This document shows positions 26,166 through 58,133 of a stretch of 64,000 bases of DNA, in pieces (position 1 is the first letter of the stretch; every line of letters starts with the position of its first letter). The notes below the pieces were generated by a model that was not told the origin of the DNA, did not search any database, and saw nothing but the letters and a program-made list of their open reading frames with translations. The stretch covers positions 38,726 to 102,725 of IMG/VR virus record IMGVR_UViG_3300030107_002093; one strand, 5' to 3'. Both the position numbers and the translations under genes were made by a program. The stretch comes from a virus.

Positions 26166-27038
26166 TCAAAACCACTCCTCCAAACTACTTTGTTTTATGT
26201 CCTTCTTTATCTGCATTACATTCCATCCCATTGCTCTGAATATAGGGTCAGCCTTCTTCATGATTGACCCAGCATAGTGTAGCCAATCAGGGGTATATCC
26301 ATCGAAGTCGCTCTCCGTTAGCCCTGCCACATACTTCGGTTCAACAGTCTTTTGGTGTATAGGATGGAAATACACGTTGTTAGGATTCACTATCCTACAA
26401 AAGAGATAGGAGTCTGTTATCGGCACATCATTGATGGCATTGTAGTATACAATACCCTCGATGCCAGCACCAATGGTTGGCCTCTTTCCTTCTAGTGTCT
26501 GCAATGTCATGTTATTGCAACACGCCCCATTAGTCAAGGAATCGAAATCATTCTTCCTTTTGCAATTACTGCACTTGACCTTGAATCTCTCTTCCCTGAA
26601 TCGACTACGCTTCAAAATGTCAGTAATCGGAATCTGTCCTGATAAAACCGTGTAATATTTATCTCTCAAAAATTCCACTATTTCTGCTTCATCCTTGTTT
26701 TCAACCCACATGTTGAGAACTGCTATCTGAACTTCCTTGGCTAGTTTAGTCTCAGAGACTCTCTTAGCAGTGAAGCCAGTCATGGTGAATTCCTTGTCAT
26801 CTAGGAACTTACCATCCTTCCAAGTAATCAAACCAGCGTTTCTGTTCTTTACACAACCAACACCGAGGGATTCAAAGTATTTCTCAAACTCAAGAACCAC
26901 AGGGTGTTCGTCTAACTCTAGGAGATTAGGAAAGAACTTCCTTACATGGTCATTGAGTTTACCCAAGTTCTCTTGTGCTTCCTCAACAGAATCCACTTGG
27001 CAGTAGATTGAATCTGTATGTCCGTAAACTACTTTCAT
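26166..27038 (-). CDS. polB: Family B DNA polymerase, C-terminal part (motif C and thumb)
   Basis: YGHTDS, LEFEK, KNRNAG, GFTAKR; PIP-like QSSLEEWF at the C-terminus. Confidence 0.85.
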   Translation of the reverse strand: MKVVYGHTDSIYCQVDSVEEAQENLGKLNDHVRKFFPNLLELDEHPVVLEFEKYFESLGVGCVKNRNAGLITWKDGKFLDDKEFTMTGFTAKRVSETKLAKEVQIAVLNMWVENKDEAEIVEFLRDKYYTVLSGQIPITDILKRSRFREERFKVKCSNCKRKNDFDSLTNGACCNNMTLQTLEGKRPTIGAGIEGIVYYNAINDVPITDSYLFCRIVNPNNVYFHPIHQKTVEPKYVAGLTESDFDGYTPDWLHYAGSIMKKADPIFRAMGWNVMQIKKDIKQSSLEEWF

Positions 27039-27656: not shown

Positions 27657-27838
27657 TCTTCCTCACCATATCCCCAATTCTTCAAGTCCTTCTCAGTCCA
27701 AGGAGTTCTCATTTGAATCACATCAGCAACTAACTGGTTGATACATGTTGGACAGACCGGGCCTGATGTTGTGCTTTGTAGGGTTATTACACCCACACCA
27801 ACATTACCACCTTCTACATTACAAATTACACATTTCAT
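27653..27838 (-). CDS. Small Zn-finger protein
   Basis: CVIC...CPTC. Confidence 0.55.
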   Translation of the reverse strand: MKCVICNVEGGNVGVGVITLQSTTSGPVCPTCINQLVADVIQMRTPWTEKDLKNWGYGEEE

Positions 27839-28029
27839 ATGTCATCCTCCTTCGGTTTGCACTCTTCGTTGTAGCAATTGAAGGAAACTTCGTAGCACCC
27901 TTCATAGTAGCCGTTCAATTCATCATCATCCCAGCGAACGTGCCACTGCTCCTCTGTTGTTTTCAAGAACATATTGTAATACATCTCCTTTCCACACTTC
28001 GGGCAGTTTGGTCTGAAAAAACTATTCAT
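27835..28029 (-). CDS. Small Zn-ribbon protein, paralogue of 27450-27656
   Basis: CPKCGKEMY...FNCYNEEC. Confidence 0.55.
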   Translation of the reverse strand: MNSFFRPNCPKCGKEMYYNMFLKTTEEQWHVRWDDDELNGYYEGCYEVSFNCYNEECKPKEDDI

Positions 28030-28130
28030 TTCTTATTCCTCCTTTCCATATTACGTTGGTATCTTTCCCATGTCATTCCTTCGTCAAAGGTCAACCACTT
28101 CCATAGTTTCTTTATCCACTTAATCATCAT
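28026..28130 (-). CDS. 34 aa micro-protein
   Basis: Manual translation MMIKWIKKLWKWLTFDEG...; ATGA overlaps at both ends. Confidence 0.45.
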   Translation of the reverse strand: MMIKWIKKLWKWLTFDEGMTWERYQRNMERRNKK

Positions 28131-29788
28131 AACTCCCTCGCTTTGAATGCGGCCTCTCTAATGGCCTGTCTTGCACTAGCAGTGATACTAGCCGCAAGGT
28201 CTACGTTAGCCCAACCAAACCCCTGATATGCAATGATACCATAGAAGGAAGCCATCAATCTCTTGACTGCTAATTGGTTGTTATTCCACTTGTTATAATC
28301 ACTTGTCGTTTCAGCGTTTCTCATCAAGGACTTGTATTCATTCCTCAATTGCTTCAACTCAAGTAGAGCCTTCGGGAGAATCCCCAACTCATCAGTTTTG
28401 AAATACATCATCTCGTATTCGGTTTCAGCACTGAAATCCTTGGGGGTTTTGATATTGACTCCAAAGGCAGTCGGTTCATCAGAGATTGTCTCAAATGAAA
28501 TGTTACGCGCAATTGTCATGCTCGGATAAAGCCCAGCGAAATCGAATGCGGCGACACCCAAATGTAATCCATTTGTGGACTCACTGAGCGGGTCATACAC
28601 CATTGCCCCATCGTATGCTACCCTCTGCCCTTTCTCGCCAGTAGGAGCCTTCCAAGGGGCATTTCTCATGAAATATATGCCTCCCATGTTACTTGCATAG
28701 AAACATGCATCGAAGGGAGCCTTCAGAAGTCTCTGGAGTGACAGTATTGCTTCTGTTGTGTGTTGCATTTCATCTATTCGGACTAATAGTTCAACGTCAA
28801 CCCTCGCGTATTCCAAATAGGTTTCAGTATCCTCAAGCCAACCCCTTGCAAAGAACTCATTCTTATCAGGGAACTTCTCACTGACGAGTTTCTTTGAACC
28901 TAGAACTGTCTCTGCAACGTAATCCAATGCCATTGACGGTAGTGTCCCTCTTTGTGCATCGTTCCATTGTCTCTCAAATGCCATGTCCAGAGGCACACAT
29001 ATCCTTCCCTTGATTGGTTGTGATATAGGAGAGTAGTTGTGAATCGCTTCTTCATAGCCTGACTTGTTCACTCCTGTTATCTCGTTGAATGGAGACATCA
29101 AACGTGGGTCTAAACCGTGAGCCACTATACGTTCAATCAACTTAGGCAAGTCGAACTTCCAACCGAACCAAGAGATAAGCATGTCAGGGTCTTGTTCAAT
29201 CATATCAGCCATGAACGCAACTAACATCTTCTGCTCTGAATGGTATAGACGATTTGTAGAAACATCGTATCCCTTTTCTAGCATTTCCTCTACGTTTGGA
29301 CACCACCAATAAGTAGTGTATCTTCTCTTGTAATTATCATATACAACAATACAAGTGATAGCACCGTCATGTTCTCCACCTTGCATCCACTCCATATCCC
29401 AATACCACTTACGCATCTCGTATTCTGGTATCTCATCTATGCAATCCACCGCATACCTGTAATGGTGTGCAACATCTGCTTCATATGTCTGACCTAACTT
29501 ATCGCGTAACCTGTAGGAGTATGATGGCCTTGCTGGTTTCCAAGTGACCTTGACTAAATCATTACCCTCTAGGTTCTTGTAGTCACCTTCCTCGGTGTTT
29601 ATCTCAAGTCGAAACCTACCCCACCTATCCTTGAACATCAAGTTCTCTATCTCCGTATATGGAGAGTCCTTCTCAATGAAGAAGTATGGCGGGAACTCCT
29701 TGAAAGAGACAACTTTCTCTTCTCTCTCAAGGGTTTCCGGGTTTCTAGTTCTTATTCCTATTCCATCGTTTATTCTACTAATTATCAT
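28127..29788 (-). CDS. polB: Family B DNA polymerase, N-terminal part (3'-5' exonuclease, motifs A and B)
   Basis: WDMEW, FDLPKL, YARVDV exonuclease motifs; FDFAGLYPS motif A; KRLMASFYG motif B. Confidence 0.9.
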   Translation of the reverse strand: MIISRINDGIGIRTRNPETLEREEKVVSFKEFPPYFFIEKDSPYTEIENLMFKDRWGRFRLEINTEEGDYKNLEGNDLVKVTWKPARPSYSYRLRDKLGQTYEADVAHHYRYAVDCIDEIPEYEMRKWYWDMEWMQGGEHDGAITCIVVYDNYKRRYTTYWWCPNVEEMLEKGYDVSTNRLYHSEQKMLVAFMADMIEQDPDMLISWFGWKFDLPKLIERIVAHGLDPRLMSPFNEITGVNKSGYEEAIHNYSPISQPIKGRICVPLDMAFERQWNDAQRGTLPSMALDYVAETVLGSKKLVSEKFPDKNEFFARGWLEDTETYLEYARVDVELLVRIDEMQHTTEAILSLQRLLKAPFDACFYASNMGGIYFMRNAPWKAPTGEKGQRVAYDGAMVYDPLSESTNGLHLGVAAFDFAGLYPSMTIARNISFETISDEPTAFGVNIKTPKDFSAETEYEMMYFKTDELGILPKALLELKQLRNEYKSLMRNAETTSDYNKWNNNQLAVKRLMASFYGIIAYQGFGWANVDLAASITASARQAIREAAFKAREL

Positions 29789-29792
29789 AATC

Positions 29793-30590
29793 TCACCTTG
29801 TTAGGTAAGGAGCCTTAATCATCATCCTGTTTGATGATGAGAACAGTATCGGGCTATCGTCCTTCATGTATATCGTTACAGGGCCGTGCATGAACCCACT
29901 GAAGGGGCCAGTGAACTCAACTGTTGATGGGTCACCAACTCCCTCCAATAACTCAATCTCAATCTCAATATTATCCACTTCGCTTTTCTTTGAACTAATG
30001 GTTAGTTTATCACCACCATATTCAAACTTGTATCTAGCCACACCAAGAACGTCACACGCCTTGGATGCCTCTATCATGTCTGCTTCCACAGTGCTTAGTT
30101 TACATTCATACTCTGTCTTACCGAATGACACTCCTCCTACAGATGGGGTTCCTTCTATGGTCGGGCCAGTCAACTGTAACATGTCATAGTTAGTAATCCT
30201 CGTAACCATATCCATGTTAGGGTGTGTTAGCACCTTAGACATGGATGCCTTCTTACCTGCACTACTCAATGTAATGTAGTCATCAGAGGTAAACGTGACA
30301 TCCTCACTGAATACCTTCAAATGCTTCAACATTGCACTTATATCAACAACGCACATTCCAGTCGCATTGTCTTCATCGGTAAACCAATGGTCTATTCTAC
30401 AAGCGACTGATGCACTAGCATTCACTATGTTCAATATAGTGTGCGGTGGATTACCCTCGATAAGTAACACTGCATATTCTGATAATGAACCGTTCTTTGA
30501 TTCATGTCCGTTGTAATACTTACCCTTTAGGTAAACGTCTTCTAGATAATTTCTTAATTTCTTTGCTTTAATTGTAAATCTCATAACCAA
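29793..30590 (-). CDS. PCNA-like sliding clamp
   Basis: 265 aa, position next to polB, C-terminal DDSPILF..MIKAP pattern; RFC and PIP-box proteins present in the same operon. Confidence 0.65.
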   Translation of the reverse strand: MVMRFTIKAKKLRNYLEDVYLKGKYYNGHESKNGSLSEYAVLLIEGNPPHTILNIVNASASVACRIDHWFTDEDNATGMCVVDISAMLKHLKVFSEDVTFTSDDYITLSSAGKKASMSKVLTHPNMDMVTRITNYDMLQLTGPTIEGTPSVGGVSFGKTEYECKLSTVEADMIEASKACDVLGVARYKFEYGGDKLTISSKKSEVDNIEIEIELLEGVGDPSTVEFTGPFSGFMHGPVTIYMKDDSPILFSSSNRMMIKAPYLTR

Positions 30591-34324: not shown

Positions 34325-35236
34325 TCATATCATCTGCCCTATCATCCAAGAAGCAAGCACCTTTGGAGTCATACTTGAACTCCGCCACTCTGCTTCCCCG
34401 ACAACCCGCAGTAATTTGAACTTTTCATTACTGGTCATATCAGTCTTTATGATAGTATCATGCAGACCGATGCATACGGTCTTCATTTCTATTGAATCGT
34501 AAAGTAAACTATGCACTCTTTCCACCGCTTCTGTATATTTATTTTCATTGACCAATTCTAATATTTCTGTGTAAGGCAATAGGTGTTTGTCGACTTGCTT
34601 GAGGAGGCTGGATTTGCTAGAAATCGCCGCCTGAAGTTCCGTCAACCCTCTTCTCACATCTCCATGTAGGGACTCTATGAAGATTTCTATCTCATCCTCG
34701 TAGGTGTTAGCAATACCCTCATTCTTCAGCGCATTAGTCAATATGGCATACATGTGGTGATGCTCCAATCTCTTGAAGGCATAGTTGGCACACCTTGAAA
34801 TCAAGGGGTGAATTATCTTATGTCTGTCATTGCAAGTTATGATGAACCTACAGTTGTCAGCATACCTTTCCATGATTCTCTTCAACGCATTCTGCGCATC
34901 CCTAGTCATACCATCCATCTCATCAAGAAGTATAATCTTGAAAGGAGCATCCCCTATCTTACTAGTAGATGCAATCTCCTTAATCCTAGTTCTAACAGTC
35001 TCTAGTTTCCTATCATCTGAAGCATTGATTTCAAAGAAGTTTGACTTGACATCATCCCTCAGCATATCATTCGCTAGAGATATAGCCGCCGCAGTCTTAC
35101 CTACTCCCGCTATACCATACAATAGGACATTGGGCATCTCTTGTTCCATCACCCAATGTTCCGCGTCCAAAGTGAAGTTCATTTGGCCGATAATCTCGTT
35201 TAGTTTTCTTGGTCTATATTTTTCTGTCCACAACAT
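34325..35236 (-). CDS. rfcS: Replication factor C small subunit (clamp loader)
   Basis: WTEKYRP, GIAGVGKT, EINASDDR, IILLDEMD, AQNALKR, SRC. Confidence 0.92.
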   Translation of the reverse strand: MLWTEKYRPRKLNEIIGQMNFTLDAEHWVMEQEMPNVLLYGIAGVGKTAAAISLANDMLRDDVKSNFFEINASDDRKLETVRTRIKEIASTSKIGDAPFKIILLDEMDGMTRDAQNALKRIMERYADNCRFIITCNDRHKIIHPLISRCANYAFKRLEHHHMYAILTNALKNEGIANTYEDEIEIFIESLHGDVRRGLTELQAAISSKSSLLKQVDKHLLPYTEILELVNENKYTEAVERVHSLLYDSIEMKTVCIGLHDTIIKTDMTSNEKFKLLRVVGEAEWRSSSMTPKVLASWMIGQMI

Positions 35237-35565
35237 TATTCTTCCTCCTCACATATATCACAATACCAATTTTCTACATTCCGCATATCATCCCAATCAC
35301 CGTGGAAAGACATTAGATTGTATATGTCATGGACATTATCCAGTTTGTGTTTTATACGATATGCGTTTGAAGGTATACACTTCTCACATACGAAGCCTTC
35401 AAACCCTACCTCTTCAATAGAATCCTCAAACATTTCCCCATAATGATGACCTGTTACGGCATCACTAAGTAATTGGTCTACTGCTTCTTCTTCACTAGTG
35501 GCCTGAACCAGACCCTCTAATTTTACTGTTAATTCAATTTTATATTCTTTCATTTTTATGCTCAT
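35236..35565 (-). CDS. Hypothetical Zn-binding protein
   Basis: CEKC...CDIC. Confidence 0.5.
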   Translation of the reverse strand: MSIKMKEYKIELTVKLEGLVQATSEEEAVDQLLSDAVTGHHYGEMFEDSIEEVGFEGFVCEKCIPSNAYRIKHKLDNVHDIYNLMSFHGDWDDMRNVENWYCDICEEEE

Positions 35566-35864
35566 TATTCTTCCTCCTCATACGTCTTCCCATCTATTTC
35601 TCCTATATACTGCCATAGTCCAACTGCGCTCTTTCTACCAGCATTTGGATAGAACCTGAAATCAGGATGTATCCTTATTAAACTGGTTAACTGAATAGCA
35701 GTGGTTCCAGCATGTTGACTTACTCTACCACTAACTCCAACATAGTTGTTCATATAGTGCCTCATTTCTGCTAGAGAGAACAGTGTTCTTTTCTTCATTT
35801 TACCGAACTTCACCATAGCATTTTTCTTGTAAGTATGTTTTATTGGCCCAGCCATTACAACCAC
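35565..35864 (-). CDS. Hypothetical basic protein
   Basis: Coupled ORF. Confidence 0.5.
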   Translation of the reverse strand: MVVMAGPIKHTYKKNAMVKFGKMKKRTLFSLAEMRHYMNNYVGVSGRVSQHAGTTAIQLTSLIRIHPDFRFYPNAGRKSAVGLWQYIGEIDGKTYEEEE

Positions 35865-40355: not shown

Positions 40356-40898
40356 TTATTCTTCCTCCATTTTTATTTCTTCTTGTTTTATTTCTAGTTC
40401 TTCTTCTTCGGTCTTGTAATTAACCACTGTTTCTGGTGGTTCCATCACTCCGAACATTACCTTCTTCGCAATCTGCGAGTCTAATCCATATGCTAAATAC
40501 TCATTGTCTCCTAACACTATGGCCGACTCCAATACTGGCTTCCATGTCTTCAACGACTTCCAATCAGTCATGCTCCAAAAAGCAGTCCCGAAAGGATGTG
40601 TGTGTATCCAGCACTTGATGGGCAACTTCATCGGTGCGCCATTGATTAACTCGTCTTCATGTCCTTCAAAGGAAACGAATCCCGGTGTTCCGTAACTGAT
40701 GTATAGATTCTCATTTGAATCTACCATCACTTGGACTTCCCTTGGGATGTCAAACGCTTTCTGCGATGCGTTCCAAATCACACTGAGGAAAGTCTCAGTA
40801 GTGTTGTTGGGATACAACCACTCGATGTCGTCCTTCAGTTGCTTGTATGCATCTCTTATGTTTTTCTTCCAATTCTTATTCAATACTTCTTCATTCAT
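40356..40898 (-). CDS. JAB/MPN+ (JAMM) metalloprotease
   Basis: EVQV catalytic Glu and WIHTHPFGTAFWSMTD = HxH-x7-S-x2-D. Confidence 0.85.
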   Translation of the reverse strand: MNEEVLNKNWKKNIRDAYKQLKDDIEWLYPNNTTETFLSVIWNASQKAFDIPREVQVMVDSNENLYISYGTPGFVSFEGHEDELINGAPMKLPIKCWIHTHPFGTAFWSMTDWKSLKTWKPVLESAIVLGDNEYLAYGLDSQIAKKVMFGVMEPPETVVNYKTEEEELEIKQEEIKMEEE

Positions 40899-40899
40899 T

Positions 40900-41139
40900 T
40901 TATGCTCCTCCTAAATTTGCTATAATAGCATCTTGTTCGTTCTGGAAGTTATGATATGCTTCGTGTCCAGAAATGAAACCACCAGCATGTCTCTTTGTTC
41001 CTAAGAACTCCTCCCCACAAGCAGGGCATGTAACCTTTACAATCTCTGCTTGTAGATAATACCCATCTGTGGATATTACAGTCATTATTTTGTCTAAGTC
41101 TTCTTCACTTAAATCGTGTATATCACTATCTTCACTCAT
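40900..41139 (-). CDS. Small Zn-finger protein
   Basis: CPAC...H...HEAYH. Confidence 0.5.
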   Translation of the reverse strand: MSEDSDIHDLSEEDLDKIMTVISTDGYYLQAEIVKVTCPACGEEFLGTKRHAGGFISGHEAYHNFQNEQDAIIANLGGA

Positions 41140-41702
41140 TCTTCTTCACTCCAATCTCTTTTCTTTTCCCATTTTCCATACGCCATTTCAAATCCATCTG
41201 CAAAGTATTCATTGTTTGGACTGAACATCTTTATTTCATACTTGTAGCATTCTCCGCACATGATATATTTACTCATTGTGGCGGTTGATTTGTTGACAAG
41301 CGTGTCAAACCTCTTCGCACCACCCGGAACATATTCTTCGCAGTTGAAACAAACAATATCCCTATTCTCATTCGTTTTCACATATACCTTCAATGGTTTT
41401 CTGTAATTGTCATAATGAGAATGTAATATTCCAGATATAACATCAGGGAACTTGTAAATTACACGGTTGAAATAGTTCTTAGAAGAAAACAATTGTCTTC
41501 TCTTTAGTCTCCTATTCCCCTGTCGCACACCCGCGATGCTTAGGTCTTTCAACTTGGTATATGGTAGCGATTCCAAGTAATCTATTACCTCATGAATAGT
41601 AACTATGTCTCCGACCTTAAGAAAATCGAAGAACTCTCTAAGAGAGTTTGTCAATTTCTTATGGTTGTAGTTTCTAACATTTCCATTCGGCATGCATATC
41701 AC
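41136..41702 (-). CDS. Hypothetical protein with C-terminal Zn finger
   Basis: CFNC...CGEC. Confidence 0.5.
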   Translation of the reverse strand: MICMPNGNVRNYNHKKLTNSLREFFDFLKVGDIVTIHEVIDYLESLPYTKLKDLSIAGVRQGNRRLKRRQLFSSKNYFNRVIYKFPDVISGILHSHYDNYRKPLKVYVKTNENRDIVCFNCEEYVPGGAKRFDTLVNKSTATMSKYIMCGECYKYEIKMFSPNNEYFADGFEMAYGKWEKKRDWSEEE

Positions 41703-42298
41703 ACATTCAATATTATCTTGTCAGCCACATCATCGTGGTCAGGCCACCATCTCTGAATCCATTGTGCGGCAATGCCAGCAATAGCCATATGCATTGTGTT
41801 CATCGTGTCAGCCGCACCTTCCCATCCCTCTCCCTGACAGGAGAAGGAACCTTCTGGCCCACTCAATAATGCATCAACCAAGTTCTCGTCTACCTTGTAT
41901 GAAATTAATGCCGCGTTTCTACCCTGTGCGCGTAAATCTAGCCACTTAATCTTCGCAGAGTCTCCATACCCCTGTCGGTATAGAAGACGGCGAACTGCAA
42001 GGTTGTCTGCGCAACAGATTACCAAGTCATATCCCTTGAGTTGCTTCTCAATGTGAACCTTGAATGGAACCGCATTGCAACTAGCAGACCATGTGTCTAC
42101 TTTCAGTTCACCTACATCATGGTCACTATACATCTGATTGCCAAGGTTACCCTTCTCTACCTTATCGTCATCAAAGACTGTTATGTCGTATAGATGCACA
42201 CCCGGCATATCAGTTCTACATCTCTGGTTTATTCTATTCAGGTTGTGAATGAGGTAACTACCTATTCCACCTGCGCCTATTATCATTATCTTTCTCAT
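41699..42298 (-). CDS. ThiF/MoeB/E1-like adenylating enzyme
   Basis: IIGAGGIGS Rossmann motif, FDDDKVEKGNLGNQ, ICCADNLAVR, WLDLRAQG, candidate catalytic Cys in FSCQ. Confidence 0.85.
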   Translation of the reverse strand: MRKIMIIGAGGIGSYLIHNLNRINQRCRTDMPGVHLYDITVFDDDKVEKGNLGNQMYSDHDVGELKVDTWSASCNAVPFKVHIEKQLKGYDLVICCADNLAVRRLLYRQGYGDSAKIKWLDLRAQGRNAALISYKVDENLVDALLSGPEGSFSCQGEGWEGAADTMNTMHMAIAGIAAQWIQRWWPDHDDVADKIILNV

Positions 42299-42500: not shown

Positions 42501-43412
42501 TCAATATCTCACGCCCGATACGAAGTCCTCGACATCCATATCAGATAATCTCTTCCTATCAAGCCCGAATATATCTGCAAATTTTTGCAGAGCGAATCTC
42601 AATCCAATCACTGATGAATTCCATACATCACATATGTTATCTTGTGTGATTGACTCATCCGTCATTTTAGCAGTCCACCAGAAAGTAGCCGCTAACATGG
42701 TATCGGAATACCTCATGTCCAATGCTTCTATATGCCTAGAGACATATTCCACCATCTTCAATACACATATCCTATAGTATTGGGACACCTCAGTATCCAA
42801 CTTACCTATTAGCACAGTCGCCTTCTGAATATGATTCTCAATAGCGAAGACATGTGCCTTACGTTGATGTCTTGCTATACGCCTAGCCATCTTTGATATC
42901 TCATTCTGTTTTACCTTGGTGTATTTGGCATGGTCTTGGATATTACAAACAATCCCTGCTTCCTTCAATACATAGTAGGTAAGACCAGCACATCTTCTCT
43001 CTACACTGCTTCCTCTGAATATCCTTTCACGACACAGTGTCTTGTAATACCCATGAGTCCTATCTTTGATATCCCAACCACTAACGTAGTATGAGAGTGT
43101 AGTGTTGATTAGGAGTTTAGCCCTTCTCTCTGATTCTGTTTCTGGCTGGCTTCTCAGTTGCTCTCTATATAGAGCGAACTTACCACTACTGCCATAGGCC
43201 TCTTGCTTTTTGATATAAGAACCCAATCTACCCGTTGTGACTCCGCGTTTATCATCGTCACTTAGTTTGATTACTTGTGTAGTTTCTTCAAATGGATTCA
43301 CTACTAGAACCAAACCGCAGTCATCGCATGTCCTTTCACCTAAATGCTCAATGAATGTAAAATCCTTGCAACCACATTCCTTACACATGTCACCCGTAGT
43401 TGTCAGGTTCAT
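42501..43412 (-). CDS. tfb: Transcription initiation factor IIB (TFB)-like protein
   Basis: CKECG...GERTCDDCGLVL Zn ribbon; cyclin repeats with RGSSVE..AG..Y and ITQ..I. Confidence 0.8.
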   Translation of the reverse strand: MNLTTTGDMCKECGCKDFTFIEHLGERTCDDCGLVLVVNPFEETTQVIKLSDDDKRGVTTGRLGSYIKKQEAYGSSGKFALYREQLRSQPETESERRAKLLINTTLSYYVSGWDIKDRTHGYYKTLCRERIFRGSSVERRCAGLTYYVLKEAGIVCNIQDHAKYTKVKQNEISKMARRIARHQRKAHVFAIENHIQKATVLIGKLDTEVSQYYRICVLKMVEYVSRHIEALDMRYSDTMLAATFWWTAKMTDESITQDNICDVWNSSVIGLRFALQKFADIFGLDRKRLSDMDVEDFVSGVRY

Positions 43413-44746
43413 CTGTATAACGCTCCTTCTTGTGGGTCACGTCTGTAGAATTCTCTTCTATATCTCTCCTCATACCTAAGAGCAACAGTAGGCGGATACG
43501 GGTATGTTTTAGCAACAATCTTCTTGTCCTTAATAGAACGGTAGGGCTTTAGTAGAGTCCTATCGAACCTATGCTTTCCATCCCATTTCGCTGATAGTGG
43601 TTCAAGACTGCGTAGCGTGTATATCATGTCACCAGCCTGTCTATCATTTAGAAGCATCATAGCCCTAGCCGCTAGTTGGTCACCAATGCTAGAGTTGACA
43701 TGTAGGTTGTCTATGCATATCGGGCCACTCCAGTCCTTGCCACTCCAATAGTATGTATTCACCTTCTGGTGGTTCTGCTTCATTCCCCTCTCAGCATCAG
43801 CGATAATCCAATCAGCATCCTTGCCTCTTACGAATAGTGCCATGTATCCCTCATGTAGAACTAGTTCTATGTTATCATACTCTGACGATAAGTCCTGTAG
43901 GAGTTCCTTCGCTCTAGTCTCCACCATATCTTGTGTTCTGTTCTGCATCAACCATGCTATCATCAACTTGAGTTGGCTTTCTGTAGGCTCTTCACCCATT
44001 AGTCTAGTCCACAGTTTCTTCGGTGTTATCCTATACCAAGTCTTAGACCTTGATAGGTTAAGACCGAATGTGTTGATGAAGGTATTCAAATTACTAACGC
44101 TTATCTCACCCCATATGCCTTCTGAAATCTCAAGCACCGCAGTCTTCTCACCTATCAGTGATGTGTTGATTCTAACATCTATCTTAGTTCCATCATCCCA
44201 GAACTGATACGGTGTCCTGTTCTCAAGAGCATACAATACATTAGCAGGGTATGTTACAACTGTGTCAATATAGTTCTCAAGGCTTTCAGCACTTCTGTCA
44301 AAACAACTCTTGAAGATGACCTTCGCAATAGCCCTCGATATGTCCTCAAGATTCATTCTCTGACTGTTGAGAGTATAGACCGAGTTGTTCTTCTGTATCC
44401 ATAGCATAGCATCCCCATCATCCCTCTTGAAGGTAATAATGGCAGTCCACCTATCCCAAGGGGTCACATCTATGTAGCGATATTTAGTGCTAGGAGCCTT
44501 TGGTATCAGATAGTTTCTCACACTAGTAGCGAGCATCTCGTTAGCAGGGTCTAGTTTCTTACTTTCCCTTGAGGCAATGGATAGTTTTGAACTCTGAATA
44601 ACCTTCTCACCTAAGTGATTGGTTCTCCTTCCTAACTTATGCTGAACGCCAGTTACTCTCATCAAAAAAGTAGTTTCGTATAGTTCCCCTGAGTCATCAG
44701 GTCTTGGTATGCAGTATCGTATTTTCATAATAATCACCGTATTCAT
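43409..44746 (-). CDS. Uncharacterised 445 aa protein, candidate E2-like C-terminal domain
   Basis: HQKVN...GPICID resembles the E2 HPN..GxICL active site; lies in the E1/JAB/Ubl neighbourhood; speculative. Confidence 0.35.
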   Translation of the reverse strand: MNTVIIMKIRYCIPRPDDSGELYETTFLMRVTGVQHKLGRRTNHLGEKVIQSSKLSIASRESKKLDPANEMLATSVRNYLIPKAPSTKYRYIDVTPWDRWTAIITFKRDDGDAMLWIQKNNSVYTLNSQRMNLEDISRAIAKVIFKSCFDRSAESLENYIDTVVTYPANVLYALENRTPYQFWDDGTKIDVRINTSLIGEKTAVLEISEGIWGEISVSNLNTFINTFGLNLSRSKTWYRITPKKLWTRLMGEEPTESQLKLMIAWLMQNRTQDMVETRAKELLQDLSSEYDNIELVLHEGYMALFVRGKDADWIIADAERGMKQNHQKVNTYYWSGKDWSGPICIDNLHVNSSIGDQLAARAMMLLNDRQAGDMIYTLRSLEPLSAKWDGKHRFDRTLLKPYRSIKDKKIVAKTYPYPPTVALRYEERYRREFYRRDPQEGALYR

Positions 44747-46998: not shown

Positions 46999-47202
46999 TC
47001 AGAGAGAACCTCCGACCATAGCCGGAATCAGGTTGACTGAATCAACCCCATCCCAACTAACTGCCGAAATATTCTCCCTTGAAACCATCTCACCATTCAC
47101 GAATACCCAATGTGTAGGGTGGTCGTTTATCTGGTCGATAACTTCACTGGCGGTAACTTGTAGTTCCGTGTGTCCTGTATCATTCATTATTCTCAATAGC
47201 AT
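46999..47202 (-). CDS. ThiS/MoaD/SAMP-like ubiquitin-fold protein with GG-SL C-terminus
   Basis: 67 aa; VFVNGEMV strand and SVNLIPAMVGG, then two extra residues; AAGGAAGGA RBS. Confidence 0.75.
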   Translation of the reverse strand: MLLRIMNDTGHTELQVTASEVIDQINDHPTHWVFVNGEMVSRENISAVSWDGVDSVNLIPAMVGGSL

Positions 47203-47239
47203 TTTTATTCCTTCCTTGTTTCTTCCATAATCTTGAGGC

Positions 47240-54654: not shown

Positions 54655-54704
54655 CAAAGTTCCGAACCATATGGTATGATACTTTGCTCAGCATACCTCA
54701 TAAG
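54655..54704 (+). promoter_or_regulatory. Palindromic element copy 2 plus CCTCATAAG box
   Basis: CAAAGT-N5-ACCATATGGT-N5-ACTTTG; box ends 22 nt before ATG 54726. Confidence 0.7.
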
Positions 54705-54725
54705 TCTGCAAGGGTAACTACTACC

Positions 54726-55454
54726 ATGTTGACATATGTAAGAACATACGAGATAACCTACGACAGAACGACAAGTGAGAAGATGCCACAATTGAACACT
54801 AAACTGTTCACCAGTGGTGTCAGAACATGCAACAAATACAGTAGCGATTTGGATGACCACCACTACGGAATGCAAGAATACGAGGATAGGGAAACATCCT
54901 ACATGATTGACATGATGGGTAAGATTGGTGTCATGGATTTCATGTATAGGAGCGATGCCCAGAAAGCAGAGGAGCAACTACAGAAGGCATTCCCATACGA
55001 GGATATTCACATGTATGAGGAATCGAAGGTCAAGAGTGGTGAGAAAGAGAAGGGGCCAAGAGGAGAATACCTAATTCACACTGATTACGACTACTGCCTC
55101 AAATACTACAACCCACATCAGACAGTTGATGAGAATGTGAAGGTAGTTGCCACACTACACACCACCTACAATGAGACAAAACTCAAATTCGTCATCACAT
55201 GGCAATCAGAGAAGGTCGCAAGGAAGGCTAAGATTGAGCAGAAGTGCGTAGATGCCCCACTAGCAATAATGGGGAAGATACAACACGTTGTTGAGAAGTC
55301 TTTGAGGGAACTCAATGATTGGGAAACCGAAGTTTTCGACAATGCGGAGATTGGTTGCCACTTCGATGTCATCAGTGAGAGCAGAAGTGAATGCACTCCT
55401 GATATTATCGAGAGAGTTAGAGCCGAGAAGAGGAAGAACGAGGAGGAAGAGTGA
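54726..55454 (+). CDS. Hypothetical protein
   Basis: ATG 54726 preferred on promoter spacing over TTG 54684. Confidence 0.65.
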   Translation: MLTYVRTYEITYDRTTSEKMPQLNTKLFTSGVRTCNKYSSDLDDHHYGMQEYEDRETSYMIDMMGKIGVMDFMYRSDAQKAEEQLQKAFPYEDIHMYEESKVKSGEKEKGPRGEYLIHTDYDYCLKYYNPHQTVDENVKVVATLHTTYNETKLKFVITWQSEKVARKAKIEQKCVDAPLAIMGKIQHVVEKSLRELNDWETEVFDNAEIGCHFDVISESRSECTPDIIERVRAEKRKNEEEE

Positions 55455-55660
55455 ATATGACAGATTACACAGTGAAGAATGGAGCAGTAGTAAGAGAAGA
55501 TGTGAAACCATACAAGTATGAACTGGAAGTTGGACACTCCAAGAGTGGTTCAGACCATGTTATCGTCATCAAGAGTCTAAGGGTTCGTGGCGATGACTTG
55601 GCTGAGTCACTTGCTGAGTTGAAAGCCGCTCTACGAGCATTCAGGGAGATGAATCTCTGA
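55451..55660 (+). CDS. Hypothetical protein
   Basis: GAGGAGG RBS, coupled. Confidence 0.55.
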   Translation: MNMTDYTVKNGAVVREDVKPYKYELEVGHSKSGSDHVIVIKSLRVRGDDLAESLAELKAALRAFREMNL

Positions 55661-56007
55661 TGCCATTGATAGTTGGAATAGTAAACGGCCCTGACAAGGG
55701 GTTCTCTAGTGAGGAGATTAGTTTCATCAACAGTTTCGGCATAGGTGTCTTAGCGATGGCGGCTTGTGTGGGTAGAGTAGATGACCCACAGAAGTTCCAT
55801 GATAGGATACAAATGACTAATCTCGTTACGGGAATATTCAACTTCCTACCTAGTTGGTTCACCGTTGAGTTCTGTGGCAGACTACAAGCCGCAGATTGGT
55901 CAGCCAACGTTACCACAGAGTCACATACGATGTGGAAGAACCGTATGAAGCAACGACTGTGGGATGATATCAAGAGAGACTACGCAAAGAGTTGTGAGGA
56001 GGAGTGA
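55660..56007 (+). CDS. Hypothetical protein
   Basis: TGATG coupling. Confidence 0.6.
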   Translation: MPLIVGIVNGPDKGFSSEEISFINSFGIGVLAMAACVGRVDDPQKFHDRIQMTNLVTGIFNFLPSWFTVEFCGRLQAADWSANVTTESHTMWKNRMKQRLWDDIKRDYAKSCEEE

Positions 56008-57487: not shown

Positions 57488-57733
57488 ATGAAGAACGTGG
57501 CATTTCAGAGGAGACACTTCAACTGGATGGTTGGATTAATGGTAGAAATGGACTTGTCGGAGGAGCAAACCGATTGGATGATAATGAGACTATCGGAGAC
57601 TAACGACAATTTCAATGAGAGGACATTCAGACTCAGTTTGATGAGAGAATTGAATGCGAGAGAGACAACTAGTCTATTCTCAAGCCCCTTAACATACAAA
57701 GGGTTAGGATTGAGGACAAAGGAGGAAGAATAA
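57488..57733 (+). CDS. Hypothetical protein
   Basis: Follows element copy 5. Confidence 0.6.
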   Translation: MKNVAFQRRHFNWMVGLMVEMDLSEEQTDWMIMRLSETNDNFNERTFRLSLMRELNARETTSLFSSPLTYKGLGLRTKEEE

Positions 57734-57933
57734 TGGGAAGATTTACGACATACTACGACCACTATAACATCAAGTGCGATTTATCCACAATGTGCGGGTG
57801 TGAACTATGCTGTGGGGAGGCATACATTGACACAAGCGGAAACGTGGTTTATCTTGATGAAGAGGACTTTACTGGTGACTACCTCACACCAGAAGACATC
57901 AAGAGGATTGAGGCAAAGAAGGAGGAAGAATAA
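57733..57933 (+). CDS. Small Cys-rich protein
   Basis: GGAGG RBS, TAATG coupling. Confidence 0.6.
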   Translation: MGRFTTYYDHYNIKCDLSTMCGCELCCGEAYIDTSGNVVYLDEEDFTGDYLTPEDIKRIEAKKEEE

Positions 57934-58133
57934 TGGGAACAAGTTGGAACAAGAGACACGCGACAACCATCATCGGGGTTAACGGTGACGCTATCGACAG
58001 AAGCGGAATGCAAAAGGCCCACTGGCGAAGGTATGACCTATGGAAGCAACGCTTCCTAGACAAGCGAACCAAGAAGTGGGACGAGAGACTCATCAAGGAG
58101 TGGTTGAAGCCACTTGTTGACGAGGAGGAGTGA
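57933..58133 (+). CDS. Small basic Trp-rich protein
   Basis: GGAGG RBS, TAATG coupling. Confidence 0.6.
   Translation: MGTSWNKRHATTIIGVNGDAIDRSGMQKAHWRRYDLWKQRFLDKRTKKWDERLIKEWLKPLVDEEE

What the first reader, a model, noticed from the sequence alone, without database searches (positions are those of the whole stretch)
46999..47202. Ubl is encoded as a capped precursor (GG followed by SL)
Seen: the di-glycine is masked by two residues before the stop. Known: E1 enzymes need a free C-terminal Gly, and JAB proteases mature such precursors. Inference: the viral JAB 6 kb downstream is the maturase. This would link the dispersed genes functionally and act as a switch, since the Ubl stays inert until JAB is expressed.
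Basis: partly seen in the sequence, partly recalled or inferred. Interest (0 to 1): 0.75.

Follow-up and report, generated by a model that had tools for sequence, protein, structure and literature searches.

The report
Capped ubiquitin-like precursor in archaeal virus
A marine archaeal virus (magrovirus-like) encodes a small ubiquitin-like protein whose reactive Gly-Gly end is hidden by two extra residues; this looks like the familiar "precursor trimmed by a JAMM protease" arrangement, seen here in a virus group where it has not been described.

Summary
ORF 46999-47202 (-) encodes 67 aa ending ...AMVGG-SL-stop.

- **Fold:** the AlphaFold model (pLDDT 86) is a beta-grasp. Its structural neighbours are ubiquitin, ISG15, MoaD, BilA-type Ubl, TtuB, SAMP1 and ThiS.
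- **Conservation:** in about 150 close homologues Gly-Gly is nearly invariant, while the tail varies (none, Y, Q, C, F, SL, AL, HC, RF...). The Gly-Gly uses 11 synonymous codon pairs, so the constraint is on the protein.
- **Wider family:** the last Gly is the only invariant residue. Of 98 cluster representatives, 84 carry something after Gly-Gly, including 2-3 tandem Ubl repeats and Ubl-E1 fusions. In one fusion locus a JAMM gene lies adjacent.
- **Gene context:** all 42 related viral records that reach far enough keep Ubl ... TFB, E1 ... JAB on one strand. The JAMM motif (E, HxH, S, D) is invariant.

Processing at Gly-Gly is therefore well supported. That the viral JAB does it is inferred, at about 0.6. 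JAB is retained in a virus whose Ubl ends in free Gly-Gly, so it probably also deconjugates. The "timing switch" idea has no support.

A second "GG+1" protein beside JAB turned out to be the downstream gene's Shine-Dalgarno site. The mechanism is known (BilA/BilC, CsUb/CsRpn11); the viral setting appears new. The scan's note e1-6021611 describes the same pathway on this window.

The parts
46999..47202 (-). Gene for the 67-aa ubiquitin-like (beta-grasp) protein precursor, stop codon included
   Evidence: ORF. AF2 model has pLDDT 86 with beta-beta-alpha-beta-beta-(alpha)-beta order. Fold neighbours are ubiquitin/NEDD8 (Foldseek prob 0.94-1.0) and Fubi, ISG15, MoaD, BilA-type Ubl, TtuB, CysO, SAMP1, ThiS and Urm1 at Z 4.1-5.3. 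Pfam ThiS gives E 0.007, with the profile end aligned to Gly65. 68 homologous clusters and 46 viral loci.
47008..47013 (-). Codons of Gly64-Gly65, the predicted mature C-terminus and JAMM cleavage point
   Evidence: Invariant or nearly invariant in alignments A1 and A6 (G65 is the only invariant column). 11 synonymous codon pairs across loci.
47002..47007 (-). Two-residue cap (Ser66-Leu67) that masks the Gly-Gly
   Evidence: Tail varies among relatives: SL, AL, VL, CL, NL, SC, HC, RF, TE, WA, SQ, LY, MD, Y, Q, C, F, I, L, N or none. Low model confidence (mean pLDDT 63 for the last block), so the tail is flexible.
47209..47215 (-). Shine-Dalgarno-like GGAAGGA 6 nt before the Ubl start codon
   Evidence: Read directly from the sequence.
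41699..42298 (-). Minimal E1-like adenylyltransferase (199 aa, ThiF family), predicted to activate the trimmed Ubl
   Evidence: Pfam ThiF 2.1e-15, 57 bits, above the 28.1 cut-off. Conserved motifs: IGxGGIGS, DxD, NxxYQ, K, CCxDN, RR, WLDLRxxGRN and GSFSCQ (mostly invariant columns in 29 homologues; each at least 90% in 36). Same family is fused behind Ubl domains in P0234 and P0258.
40356..40898 (-). JAMM/MPN+ metalloprotease (180 aa): candidate Ubl-trimming enzyme and deconjugase
   Evidence: Motif E54 ... H99-T-H101 ... S109-x-x-D112 is invariant in 30 aligned homologues. Profile hits AMSH-LP at 1.3e-4 and the Caldiarchaeum Rpn11-like protein at 1.9e-3. Present in 42 of 42 related records that reach far enough.
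40900..41139 (-). 79-aa zinc-ribbon protein ending LGG-A. Probably NOT a second capped modifier: its GGAGGA is the ribosome-binding site of the JAB gene
   Evidence: 117 of 120 homologues end in GG plus exactly one residue. However, 14 of 16 loci use GGA GGA, with the next ATG 6-9 nt downstream. AF2 model (pLDDT 69) shows zinc-ribbon hairpins plus a long helix, not a beta-grasp.
41136..41702 (-). 188-aa Cys-rich protein inside the E1-JAB cluster, of unknown role and kept only in the closest relatives
   Evidence: No family hit. Homologues only in L002 and L004.
43409..44746 (-). 445-aa conserved protein between Ubl and E1, with an invariant GP-x-CID ... GDQ ... ND motif. Possible partner of the pathway (lead only)
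   Evidence: Present in 39 non-redundant loci. Weak profile match (hhalign E 1.8e-3, probability 15%) to the domain fused after Ubl-GG in P0253 and P0263. No Pfam or Atlas hit.
42501..43412 (-). TFIIB-like transcription factor, a conserved neighbour upstream of E1 and a marker of an archaeal virus
   Evidence: Pfam TFIIB zinc ribbon 5e-4, below the cut-off. Conserved position in related loci and in L048.

Best explanation
The gene encodes a ubiquitin-like beta-grasp protein of a virus-specific family that is remote from ThiS/MoaD/SAMP. It is translated as an inactive precursor: two extra residues (Ser-Leu) follow the Gly-Gly. An endopeptidase must cut after Gly65 before the virus's own 199-aa E1-like enzyme can adenylate the new C-terminal glycine.

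The most likely peptidase is the virus's own JAMM metalloprotease, 6 kb downstream. It probably also removes the Ubl from whatever it becomes attached to. After activation the Ubl is most likely conjugated to proteins without a recognisable E2, as in archaeal sampylation. Less likely, it is turned into a thiocarboxylate sulfur carrier.

Shown here: the cap, its variability, protein-level conservation of Gly-Gly, the fold, the constant co-occurrence with E1 and JAB, intact catalytic motifs, and the existence of poly-Ubl and Ubl-E1 fusion relatives. Inferred: cleavage itself, which enzyme does it, adenylation, and the downstream fate of the Ubl.
For: **Sequence and ORF**
-.

**Fold**
-.

**Gly-Gly constant, tail variable**
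-.
- 11 synonymous codon pairs and no downstream start codon nearby.

**Wider family (50%-identity representatives)**
- 94 of 98 have Gly-Gly. Only 10 end there; 51 have 1-4 extra residues, 18 have 5-30 and 15 have more than 30.
- Gly65 is the only invariant column.

**Fusions that require cleavage**
- Triple and double head-to-tail Ubl repeats, each ending in VGG: P0223, P0229, P0230, P0241, P0252, P0278.
- Ubl-Ubl-E1 (P0234) and Ubl-E1 (P0258) fusions.
- In L048 the fusion gene is followed directly by a JAB gene.

**Synteny and catalytic motifs**
- Ubl ... TFB, E1 ... JAB is kept in 40 of 40 loci with enough flank, plus 2 more whole records.
- The JAMM motif is invariant and the E1 nucleotide-binding motifs are conserved.

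- BilC (JAB) cuts BilA between Gly97 and Ala98 (PMC10557695).
- CsRpn11 processes the CsUb precursor (PMC6043591).
- JAB processing at the last Gly was predicted for prokaryotic Ubls in 2006 (PMC1779556).
Against: - No biochemical data exist, and no complex prediction could be run.
- JAB is kept in the record whose Ubl ends in free Gly-Gly (G001), and about one in ten family representatives are uncapped. JAB must therefore have another role, and a host JAMM could do the trimming.
- The sequence-level family assignment is weak: Pfam ThiS is below its cut-off and hits only 2 of 48 close and 2 of 59 distant members. Prok-JAB reaches only E 0.086.
- The fold match is moderate (Z about 5, TM 0.4-0.5).
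- The E1 is unusually short. It lacks the usual N-terminal Arg-finger helix and the second zinc motif, so its activity is assumed rather than shown.
- Counts of homologues are not phylogenetically independent.
Confidence: 0.6

Rival explanations
1. The Ubl is a capped precursor, but a host protease (a host JAMM/MPN+ enzyme or a carboxypeptidase) removes the cap. The viral JAB is mainly an isopeptidase that strips the viral Ubl, or host SAMP-type modifiers, from proteins.
For: JAB is retained where the Ubl is already uncapped. JAMM enzymes of archaea and of archaeal extrachromosomal elements are mostly discussed as deconjugases (Borg deSAMPylases, PMC12660748). Caps of only 1-2 residues could be removed by unspecific exopeptidases.
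Against: Poly-Ubl and Ubl-E1 fusions need an endopeptidase specific for Gly-Gly. In the one fusion locus seen, the JAB gene lies beside the fusion. Known JAB enzymes of Ubl operons do both jobs (PMC10557695, PMC6043591). JAB co-occurs with the Ubl in 42 of 42 records.
Confidence: 0.2
2. The module is a sulfur-transfer system rather than a protein-tagging one. After trimming, E1 adenylates the Ubl, which becomes a thiocarboxylate that donates sulfur, for example for tRNA thiolation or a cofactor. JAB acts like QbsD on QbsE (GG-CF) or Mec+ on CysO-Cys. This rival concerns what happens after trimming and is compatible with the cap.
For: The only sequence-family signal is ThiS. There is no E2, and the E1 lacks a separate catalytic-cysteine domain. 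MoaD, TtuB, CysO and ThiS are among the fold neighbours. The QbsE/QbsD and CysO/Mec+ precedents are from my own knowledge and were not read here.
Against: No rhodanese, cysteine desulfurase, or thiolation/biosynthetic enzyme was found in the conserved block. Head-to-tail poly-Ubl genes are typical of protein modifiers (PMC1779556). Neighbours are replication and transcription genes.
Confidence: 0.25
3. The tail is a timing device. The Ubl accumulates inert and is switched on only when JAB is expressed later.
For: Ubl and JAB lie in different tightly packed sub-clusters, separated by 102-nt and 202-nt intergenic gaps. Separate promoters are therefore possible.
Against: Both lie in one co-directional block of replication-type genes. 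E1 is in the same sub-cluster as JAB, so activation would be limited by E1 expression anyway. Tails of 0-2 variable residues look like weakly constrained leftovers rather than a tuned regulator. About 10% of relatives have no cap. No expression data are available.
Confidence: 0.1
4. The Gly-Gly is not functional at the protein level. It would be a nucleotide-level feature (an embedded ribosome-binding site, GGAGG) or chance, and the ORF would not be a Ubl.
For: In this genome the codons are GGA GGT (GGAGG). The neighbouring 79-aa protein's 'GG+1' ending is exactly such an artefact. 5 of 122 genes end in GG plus 0-2 residues.
Against: Across loci the Ubl Gly-Gly uses 11 codon pairs, most often GGC GGC, and no start codon follows within 40 nt. 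Gly-Gly also lies at internal junctions of poly-Ubl and Ubl-E1 fusions. The beta-grasp fold places it at the canonical tail.
Confidence: 0.02

Closest known systems
Bacterial Bil (BilABCD) ubiquitination-like defence system: BilA Ubl precursor trimmed by the JAB enzyme BilC (PMC10557695)
   Same: A beta-grasp Ubl with a short cap after the reactive Gly (one residue, Ala98, in E. aridi). A JAB/JAMM enzyme of the same gene set removes it and also deconjugates. A dedicated E1 is present. A BilA-type Ubl (8tyz_B) is among the fold neighbours (Z 5.0).
   Different: No E2 (BilB) was found here. The E1 is a 199-aa minimal enzyme without a CYS domain. The genes are spread over 7 kb among replication genes rather than forming a 4-gene operon. 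They are carried by an archaeal virus rather than serving as a bacterial anti-phage system. There is no sequence-level family match.
Archaeal sampylation (SAMP1-3, E1 UbaA, HvJAMM1) (PMC4895103, PMC4443979, PMC2948915)
   Same: An archaeal setting. E2-independent Ubl activation by a ThiF-type E1. A JAMM enzyme as the cognate protease. A small ThiS/MoaD-like beta-grasp with a Gly-Gly end. SAMP1 is a fold neighbour (Z 4.3).
   Different: The viral E1 scores 31 bits against the UbaA model, whose cut-off is 450. Haloferax SAMPs end in free Gly-Gly (my own knowledge), whereas this family is usually capped, tandemly repeated or fused. It is virus-encoded.
Caldiarchaeum subterraneum CsUb precursor and CsRpn11 (PMC6043591)
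   Same: An archaeal Ub-type precursor processed by a soluble JAMM enzyme. The CsRpn11-like chain 6fjv is a profile hit of the viral JAB family (E 1.9e-3).
   Different: The Caldiarchaeum operon has an E2 and a RING E3 and a true ubiquitin homologue. None of these was found here.
Eukaryotic ubiquitin and Ubl precursors (polyubiquitin with a one-residue C-terminal cap, NEDD8, SUMO, ISG15)
   Same: Ubiquitin and NEDD8 are the top Foldseek neighbours.
   Different: No detectable sequence similarity. The processing enzyme would be a JAMM metalloprotease rather than a cysteine DUB/ULP. There is no E2/E3 cascade. (Eukaryotic precursor details are from my own knowledge.)
Sulfur-carrier precursors QbsE/QbsD and CysO/Mec+ (own knowledge, not read here); prokaryotic Ubl-JAB-E1 neighbourhoods and N-terminal Ubl-ThiF fusions (PMC1779556)
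   Same: A ThiS/MoaD-like protein with residues after Gly-Gly that a JAMM enzyme removes. Ubl domains fused in front of ThiF and tandem Ubl repeats were catalogued in 2006.
   Different: No sulfur-metabolism genes are in the neighbourhood. The family is restricted to viral or metagenomic contigs.

Membership tests
Ubiquitin-like beta-grasp modifiers / sulfur carriers (ThiS-MoaD-SAMP-Urm1-Ub superfamily) | beta-grasp fold (beta-beta-alpha-beta-beta-(alpha)-beta) | tested here: met
   AF2 model has pLDDT 86 with this strand and helix order. Nearly all of the 50 best structural matches are Ub-like beta-grasp proteins at Z 4.1-5.3. Foldseek prob 0.94-1.0 to ubiquitin/NEDD8, but TM is only 0.4-0.5.
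Ubiquitin-like beta-grasp modifiers / sulfur carriers (ThiS-MoaD-SAMP-Urm1-Ub superfamily) | Conserved Gly (usually Gly-Gly) on a flexible tail at the end of the fold | tested here: met
   G64 and G65 are invariant or nearly so. 94 of 98 family representatives have them. Synonymous codon variation is present.
Pfam ThiS family PF02597 | Score above the curated gathering cut-off (22.5 bits) | tested here: not met
   17.3 bits, E 0.007. Only 2 of 48 close and 2 of 59 distant members match at E <= 0.01. It is a separate family, at best remotely related.
Ubiquitin-like beta-grasp modifiers / sulfur carriers (ThiS-MoaD-SAMP-Urm1-Ub superfamily) | C-terminal Gly is adenylated by a cognate E1 | not testable with these tools
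   Supported only indirectly, by constant co-occurrence with the viral E1 and by Ubl-E1 fusions.
JAMM/MPN+ metalloproteases | Catalytic motif E ... HxH ... S-x-x-D | tested here: met
   E54, H99, H101, S109 and D112 are invariant in 30 homologues. The motif region aligns with AMSH-LP (E 1.3e-4).
JAMM/MPN+ metalloproteases | Pfam Prok-JAB PF14464 above its cut-off (25 bits) | tested here: not met
   13.2 bits, E 0.086. It is a divergent lineage recognised by motif and by profile-to-PDB match only.
E1-like adenylyltransferases (ThiF, PF00899) | Pfam score above cut-off, plus the GxGxxG and D-N nucleotide/Mg motifs | tested here: met
   57 bits against 28.1. Invariant G8/G10/G11, D43, D45, K66, D98-N99 and R103.
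Canonical E1 of conjugation cascades (Uba1/BilD/Cap2 type) | Catalytic-cysteine domain and an E2 partner or E2 fusion | tested here: not met
   The protein is 199 aa, and profile matches cover only the N-terminal half. No UBC/E2 family was found in any neighbour by Pfam, NCBIfam or PADLOC. This is sequence level only, so a cryptic E2-like fold is not excluded.
Archaeal SAMP-activating E1 UbaA (NF047750) | Score above the curated cut-off (450 bits) | tested here: not met
   31 bits.
PRTRC cassette (ThiF, JAB-like and Ubl-like proteins of mobile elements) | PRTRC_ThiF above cut-off (144.75 bits) together with the PRTRC A and C proteins | tested here: not met
   PRTRC_ThiF is the best NCBIfam hit but reaches only 62.8 bits. 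No PRTRC model matches the Ubl or the JAB at E <= 1.
Magrovirales (tailed viruses of Poseidoniales / Marine Group II archaea) | A roughly 90-100 kb genome with a near-complete archaeal-type replication set, including PolB split into N- and C-terminal genes, RFC, TFB and an ATP-dependent ligase; RNR in group B | tested here: met
   102.7-kb record. PolB-N at 28127-29788 and PolB-C at 26166-27038, RFC-like at 34325-35236. Ligase, TFIIB-like and class II RNR present. These match the descriptions in PMC5434244 and PMC10768690. No marker-gene phylogeny was done, so the assignment is 'magrovirus-like'.

The most novel reading that the evidence does not exclude
[quoted passage not shown] It would comprise a capped Ubl precursor, a minimal 199-aa E1, a JAMM protease, and perhaps the 445-aa invariant-Cys protein as a new kind of conjugating partner. 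This system would belong to a wider, undescribed Ubl family that independently evolved polyubiquitin-like tandem precursors and Ubl-E1 fusions. The virus would use it to tag host or viral proteins during infection.
Probability: 0.35. Interest if true: 0.75.

Novelty: new variant of a known kind. Interest (0 to 1): 0.5.

Why it matters
Ubiquitin-like tagging encoded by viruses of prokaryotes is almost unexplored. Earlier work noted only that ThiF/MoeB-type genes are common 'auxiliary' genes of archaeal viruses (PMC8276007) and that one Asgard virus carries E1 homologues (bioRxiv 10.1101/2021.07.29.454249). The magrovirus papers I searched mention no Ubl, E1 or JAB.

Here the E1 is not a stray metabolic gene. 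It comes with its own Ubl and protease in every related genome, and the Ubl is made in a form that must be processed. That gives a clean, cheap biochemical entry point (three small proteins) into what an abundant, uncultured virus group does to its host.

The tandem-repeat and E1-fused relatives show that the 'polyubiquitin precursor' solution arose outside eukaryotes in this family as well. The cap itself works by a textbook mechanism, so the surprise lies in the setting rather than the principle.

Tried and rejected
1. **A second capped GG protein.** The 79-aa zinc-ribbon protein (40900-41139) ends in GG plus exactly one variable residue in 117 of 120 homologues. I first read it as a second JAB/E1 substrate. 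I rejected this as the main reading: 14 of 16 loci encode it as GGA GGA, with the next gene's ATG 6-9 nt downstream. It is therefore the Shine-Dalgarno site of the JAB or next gene. The model is not a beta-grasp. The same effect explains the many ...EEE C-termini.
2. **Significance within one genome.** Not significant: 5 observed against about 1.8 expected GG-type endings.
3. **Membership in ThiS, PRTRC, UbaA, Bil or Cap2.** All below cut-offs or lacking defining partners.
4. **GenBank phage collection.** No match for the Ubl or the JAB. The E1 gave only distant Rossmann-level hits to crAss-like phage 'thiamine biosynthesis protein' and PRTRC ThiF. ON649702 is not held.
5. **Context of the poly-Ubl genes.** Not found in viral contigs. 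The single metagenome scan returned two Ubl-Ubl-E1 contigs.
6. **Homology of the domain fused after Ubl-GG (P0233, P0253, P0263, P0277) to window proteins.** phmmer found nothing. hhalign gave only a weak motif-level match to the 445-aa protein (E 1.8e-3, probability 15%). Kept as a lead only.
7. **ESM Atlas.** Nothing usable for the 445-aa protein; virus-only clusters for the 79-aa protein.
8. **Cellular genomes.** Only three contigs of one 'Altibacter' MAG carry the Ubl, most likely mis-binned viral contigs.
9. **The 'switch' idea.** No supporting evidence was obtainable.
Full report
**1. What is at the coordinates**

The minus strand of 46999-47202 holds a 67-aa ORF. It starts at an ATG preceded by a GGAAGGA ribosome-binding-like site 6 nt upstream. 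It ends GTC GGA GGT TCT CTC TGA, reading Val-Gly-Gly-Ser-Leu-stop.

The window is bases 38726-102725 of a 102,725-bp IMG/VR virus record rated complete. [quoted passage not shown] - an ATP-dependent DNA ligase and a TFIIB-like factor;
- a class II ribonucleotide reductase directly downstream of the ORF.

This matches published descriptions of magroviruses, the tailed viruses of Marine Group II/Poseidoniales archaea. Those descriptions include split PolB, TFB, RFC and ligase, genomes of 90-100 kb, and RNR in group B (PMC5434244; PMC10768690). I call it magrovirus-like because I built no marker phylogeny.

**2. Is the protein ubiquitin-like?**

By sequence the signal is weak. Pfam ThiS gives E 0.007, below its cut-off, although the end of the profile aligns to Gly65. 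Only 2 of 48 close and 2 of 59 distant relatives hit ThiS.

By structure the answer is clearer. An AlphaFold2 model built on 48 homologues has mean pLDDT 86 and the beta-beta-alpha-beta-beta-(alpha)-beta order of a beta-grasp, with a flexible tail from residue 61.
- Foldseek's best matches are all ubiquitin or NEDD8 (probability 0.94-1.0, though E is only about 3e-3 and TM 0.4-0.5).
- An exhaustive structural comparison gives Z 4.1-5.3 to Fubi, ISG15, MoaD, a bacterial BilA-type Ubl, TtuB, CysO, SAMP1, ThiS and Urm1.

It is therefore a beta-grasp Ubl of its own family.

**3. Is the Gly-Gly conserved and the extension variable?**

Yes. Evidence comes from 68 protein clusters, their members and 46 related viral loci.
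- Gly-Gly is present in all loci, and in all but three of the full-length members of the protein clusters (GD, GA and a GGG variant, each on a short contig).
- What follows it is none, Y, Q, C, F, I, L, N, SL, AL, VL, CL, NL, SC, HC, RF, TE, WA, SQ, LY or MD.

I checked that this is not a nucleotide-level artefact. This matters because the genome often embeds the next gene's Shine-Dalgarno sequence (GGAGG) in the end of the preceding gene. The Ubl Gly-Gly is written with 11 different codon pairs, most often GGC GGC, and no start codon follows within 40 nt. The constraint is on the amino acids.

Taken alone, the single-genome observation would not be significant: 5 of 122 crude genes end in GG plus 0-2 residues, against about 1.8 expected.

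**4. The wider family**

A profile search of 1.8 billion representative proteins found 128 relatives. In 98 of them the C-terminal end of the domain is present.
- 94 have Gly-Gly there.
- Only 10 stop at it; 51 carry 1-4 extra residues, 18 carry 5-30, and 15 carry more than 30.
- In an alignment reaching down to 20% identity, the last Gly is the only invariant column.

Among the long forms are:
- proteins made of three (P0223, P0229, P0230) or two (P0240, P0241, P0247, P0252, P0271, P0278) head-to-tail Ubl units, nearly all ending in (L/M/I)VGG (Ala-Gly in P0240), with a final 1-4-residue cap in most (11 residues in P0271), the same layout as polyubiquitin;
- Ubl-Ubl-E1 (P0234) and Ubl-E1 (P0258) fusions whose E1 part is a ThiF domain carrying the same motifs as the window's E1.

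Such proteins can only yield an E1 substrate if an endopeptidase cuts after each Gly-Gly. One contig carrying the Ubl-Ubl-E1 gene (L048) has the order TFIIB-like, two unknown genes, Ubl-Ubl-E1. A JAB gene with HTH-x7-S-x2-D follows immediately.

**5. The partners in the window**

Downstream on the same strand lie two enzymes.
- *E1 (41699-42298).* A 199-aa ThiF-family protein, Pfam 57 bits. Its glycine-rich loop, the Asp residues, Lys66, Asp98-Asn99, Arg103 and the Cys of GSFSCQ are invariant across 29 homologues, and the remaining motif residues are at least 90% conserved in 36.
- *JAB (40356-40898).* A 180-aa protein whose E54 ... H99-T-H101 ... S109-x-x-D112 JAMM motif is invariant in 30 homologues. 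Its profile matches AMSH-LP (1.3e-4) and the Caldiarchaeum Rpn11-like enzyme (1.9e-3).

In all 40 related loci whose contig extends far enough, the order Ubl, (RNR), 445-aa protein, TFB, E1 ... JAB is kept. Two of the six truncated loci have the JAB further along the full record. The other four contigs end before the expected position.

No E2-like protein was detected in the block by Pfam, NCBIfam, PHROGs or PADLOC. The E1 is much shorter than conjugation-type E1s, and only its N-terminal half matches solved E1s (MccB, Uba4, UBA5, MoeB, Cap2). The architecture is therefore closest to the E2-less archaeal SAMP/UbaA/JAMM arrangement, but no curated family cut-off for UbaA or PRTRC is met.

**6. 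How it most likely works**

- *Shown:* the Ubl is encoded with a masked Gly-Gly; the mask is evolutionarily labile while Gly-Gly is fixed; E1 and JAMM genes with intact catalytic motifs always accompany it; relatives exist that require cleavage after Gly-Gly.
- *Established elsewhere:* E1 enzymes adenylate a free C-terminal Gly carboxylate. JAB enzymes of Ubl operons trim precursors and also deconjugate. BilC cuts BilA between Gly97 and Ala98 (PMC10557695). CsRpn11 processes the CsUb precursor (PMC6043591). This role was predicted for prokaryotic JABs in 2006 (PMC1779556).
- *Inferred:* the viral JAB removes Ser-Leu, the viral E1 then activates Gly65, and the Ubl is conjugated to proteins or, less likely, thiocarboxylated.

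I put the need for trimming at about 0.85 and the viral JAB as the trimming enzyme at about 0.6.

One caution applies. The record behind L029 encodes a Ubl ending in free Gly-Gly yet keeps a well-conserved JAB (E 2.9e-70). JAB must therefore do more than remove the cap, and a host JAMM could contribute to trimming.

**7. The 'switch' idea**

The genes fall into three tightly packed sub-clusters on one strand, separated by 102-nt and 202-nt gaps:
- ... 383-aa, 86-aa, Ubl;
- RNR, 112-aa, 445-aa, TFB;
- E1, 188-aa, 79-aa, JAB.

Separate promoters are possible, but nothing indicates different timing. E1 sits with JAB, so activation would depend on that cluster in any case. I rate this at about 0.1.

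**8. A lead that collapsed, and one that remains**

The 79-aa zinc-ribbon protein just upstream of JAB ends in LGG-A, and 117 of 120 homologues end in GG plus exactly one residue. This looked like a second capped substrate. However, 14 of 16 loci write it GGA GGA, and the next ATG follows 6-9 nt later. It is the ribosome-binding site of the downstream gene. The model (pLDDT 69) is a zinc ribbon plus a long helix, not a beta-grasp.

The remaining lead is the 445-aa protein (43409-44746). It is conserved in 39 non-redundant loci and has an invariant GP-x-CID ... GDQ ... ND motif. It shows a weak profile match (E 1.8e-3, probability 15%) to the unknown domain fused directly after Ubl-GG in P0253 and P0263. 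It could be a partner of the pathway, but the evidence is thin.

**9. Comparison and novelty**

The principle, a Ubl precursor trimmed by a JAMM enzyme, is known. So are tandem Ubl repeats and Ubl-ThiF fusions in prokaryotes (PMC1779556). What I could not find in the literature searched is any description of a Ubl, E1 and JAB set in magroviruses. The nearest statements are:
- that ThiF/MoeB is a prevalent auxiliary gene of archaeal viruses (PMC8276007);
- that an Asgard virus carries E1 homologues;
- that Borg elements carry many JAMM 'deSAMPylases' (PMC12660748).

The Ubl family is essentially confined to viral and metagenomic contigs. I class it as a new variant of a known kind: virus-borne, without an E2, with a minimal E1 and a distinct Ubl family. 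My tests agree with it for the Ubl, E1 and JAB and found no E2.

**10. Verdict**

The mechanism is conventional and the setting appears new. Interest 0.5.

Noticed in passing
window 40900-41139 (-) and 40880-40925: The 79-aa zinc-ribbon protein ends ...LGG-A. Its GGAGGA codons are the Shine-Dalgarno site of the JAB gene, whose ATG is 7 nt downstream. The 'GG plus exactly one residue' ending, conserved in 117 of 120 homologues, is therefore best explained at the nucleotide level. This is a caution for anyone scanning for C-terminal GG motifs in this virus group.
   Followed up: yes
whole genome; e.g. window 40356-40898, 41136-41702, 35236-35864, 54684-55454, 55660-56007, 57733-58133: 14 of 122 crude genes end in ...EE(E), and the same holds in many related loci. 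The ending is probably a purine-rich GA(G/A) run in the last codons that serves as the next gene's ribosome-binding site (GAAGAAGAATG at the one junction I read). If so, these archaeal viruses rely on Shine-Dalgarno-led, tightly coupled translation.
   Followed up: partly
window 43409-44746 (-): A 445-aa protein conserved in all related loci between the Ubl and TFB, with an invariant GP-x-CID ... GDQ ... R ... ND motif and no known family. It has a weak profile similarity to the domain fused after Ubl-GG in some distant relatives, so it may be a pathway partner.
   Followed up: partly
proteins P0223, P0229, P0230 (triple), P0240/P0241/P0247/P0252/P0271/P0278 (double), P0234 and P0258 (Ubl-E1); locus L048 4441-6101: Distant members of the same Ubl family occur as polyubiquitin-like tandem repeats and as N-terminal fusions to the E1. 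In L048 the Ubl-Ubl-E1 gene is followed directly by a JAB gene and preceded by a TFIIB-like gene and a T7-like single-subunit RNA polymerase fragment.
   Followed up: partly
window 26166-27038 (-), 27745-28146 (+), 28127-29788 (-): The family B DNA polymerase is split into C-terminal (290 aa) and N-terminal (553 aa) genes, with an opposite-strand ORF between them. This is the arrangement described for magroviruses.
   Followed up: no
window 46999-47202: residues 26-32 of the Ubl: An invariant H-P-T-H-W motif (usually N-D-H-P-T-H-W, with two histidines) lies after the helix of the Ubl. It is unusual for ThiS/MoaD-type proteins. It could be an E1/JAB recognition patch or a metal site, and its function is unknown. 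In the wider family only the Trp persists.
   Followed up: no
genome bases 29810-30010 (+), 8.7-8.9 kb before the window's start: A 66-aa protein, helical-looking by eye (not modelled), in the structural module ends in free ...LKGG. It is probably chance, since neither its fold nor its homologues were checked.
   Followed up: no
loci L052-L054 (NZ_NZTP01000016/27/30, 'Altibacter sp.' MAG): The only species-representative genome that carries this Ubl family is a Flavobacteriaceae MAG, on three separate contigs. These are most likely magrovirus contigs binned into a bacterial MAG by mistake.
   Followed up: no
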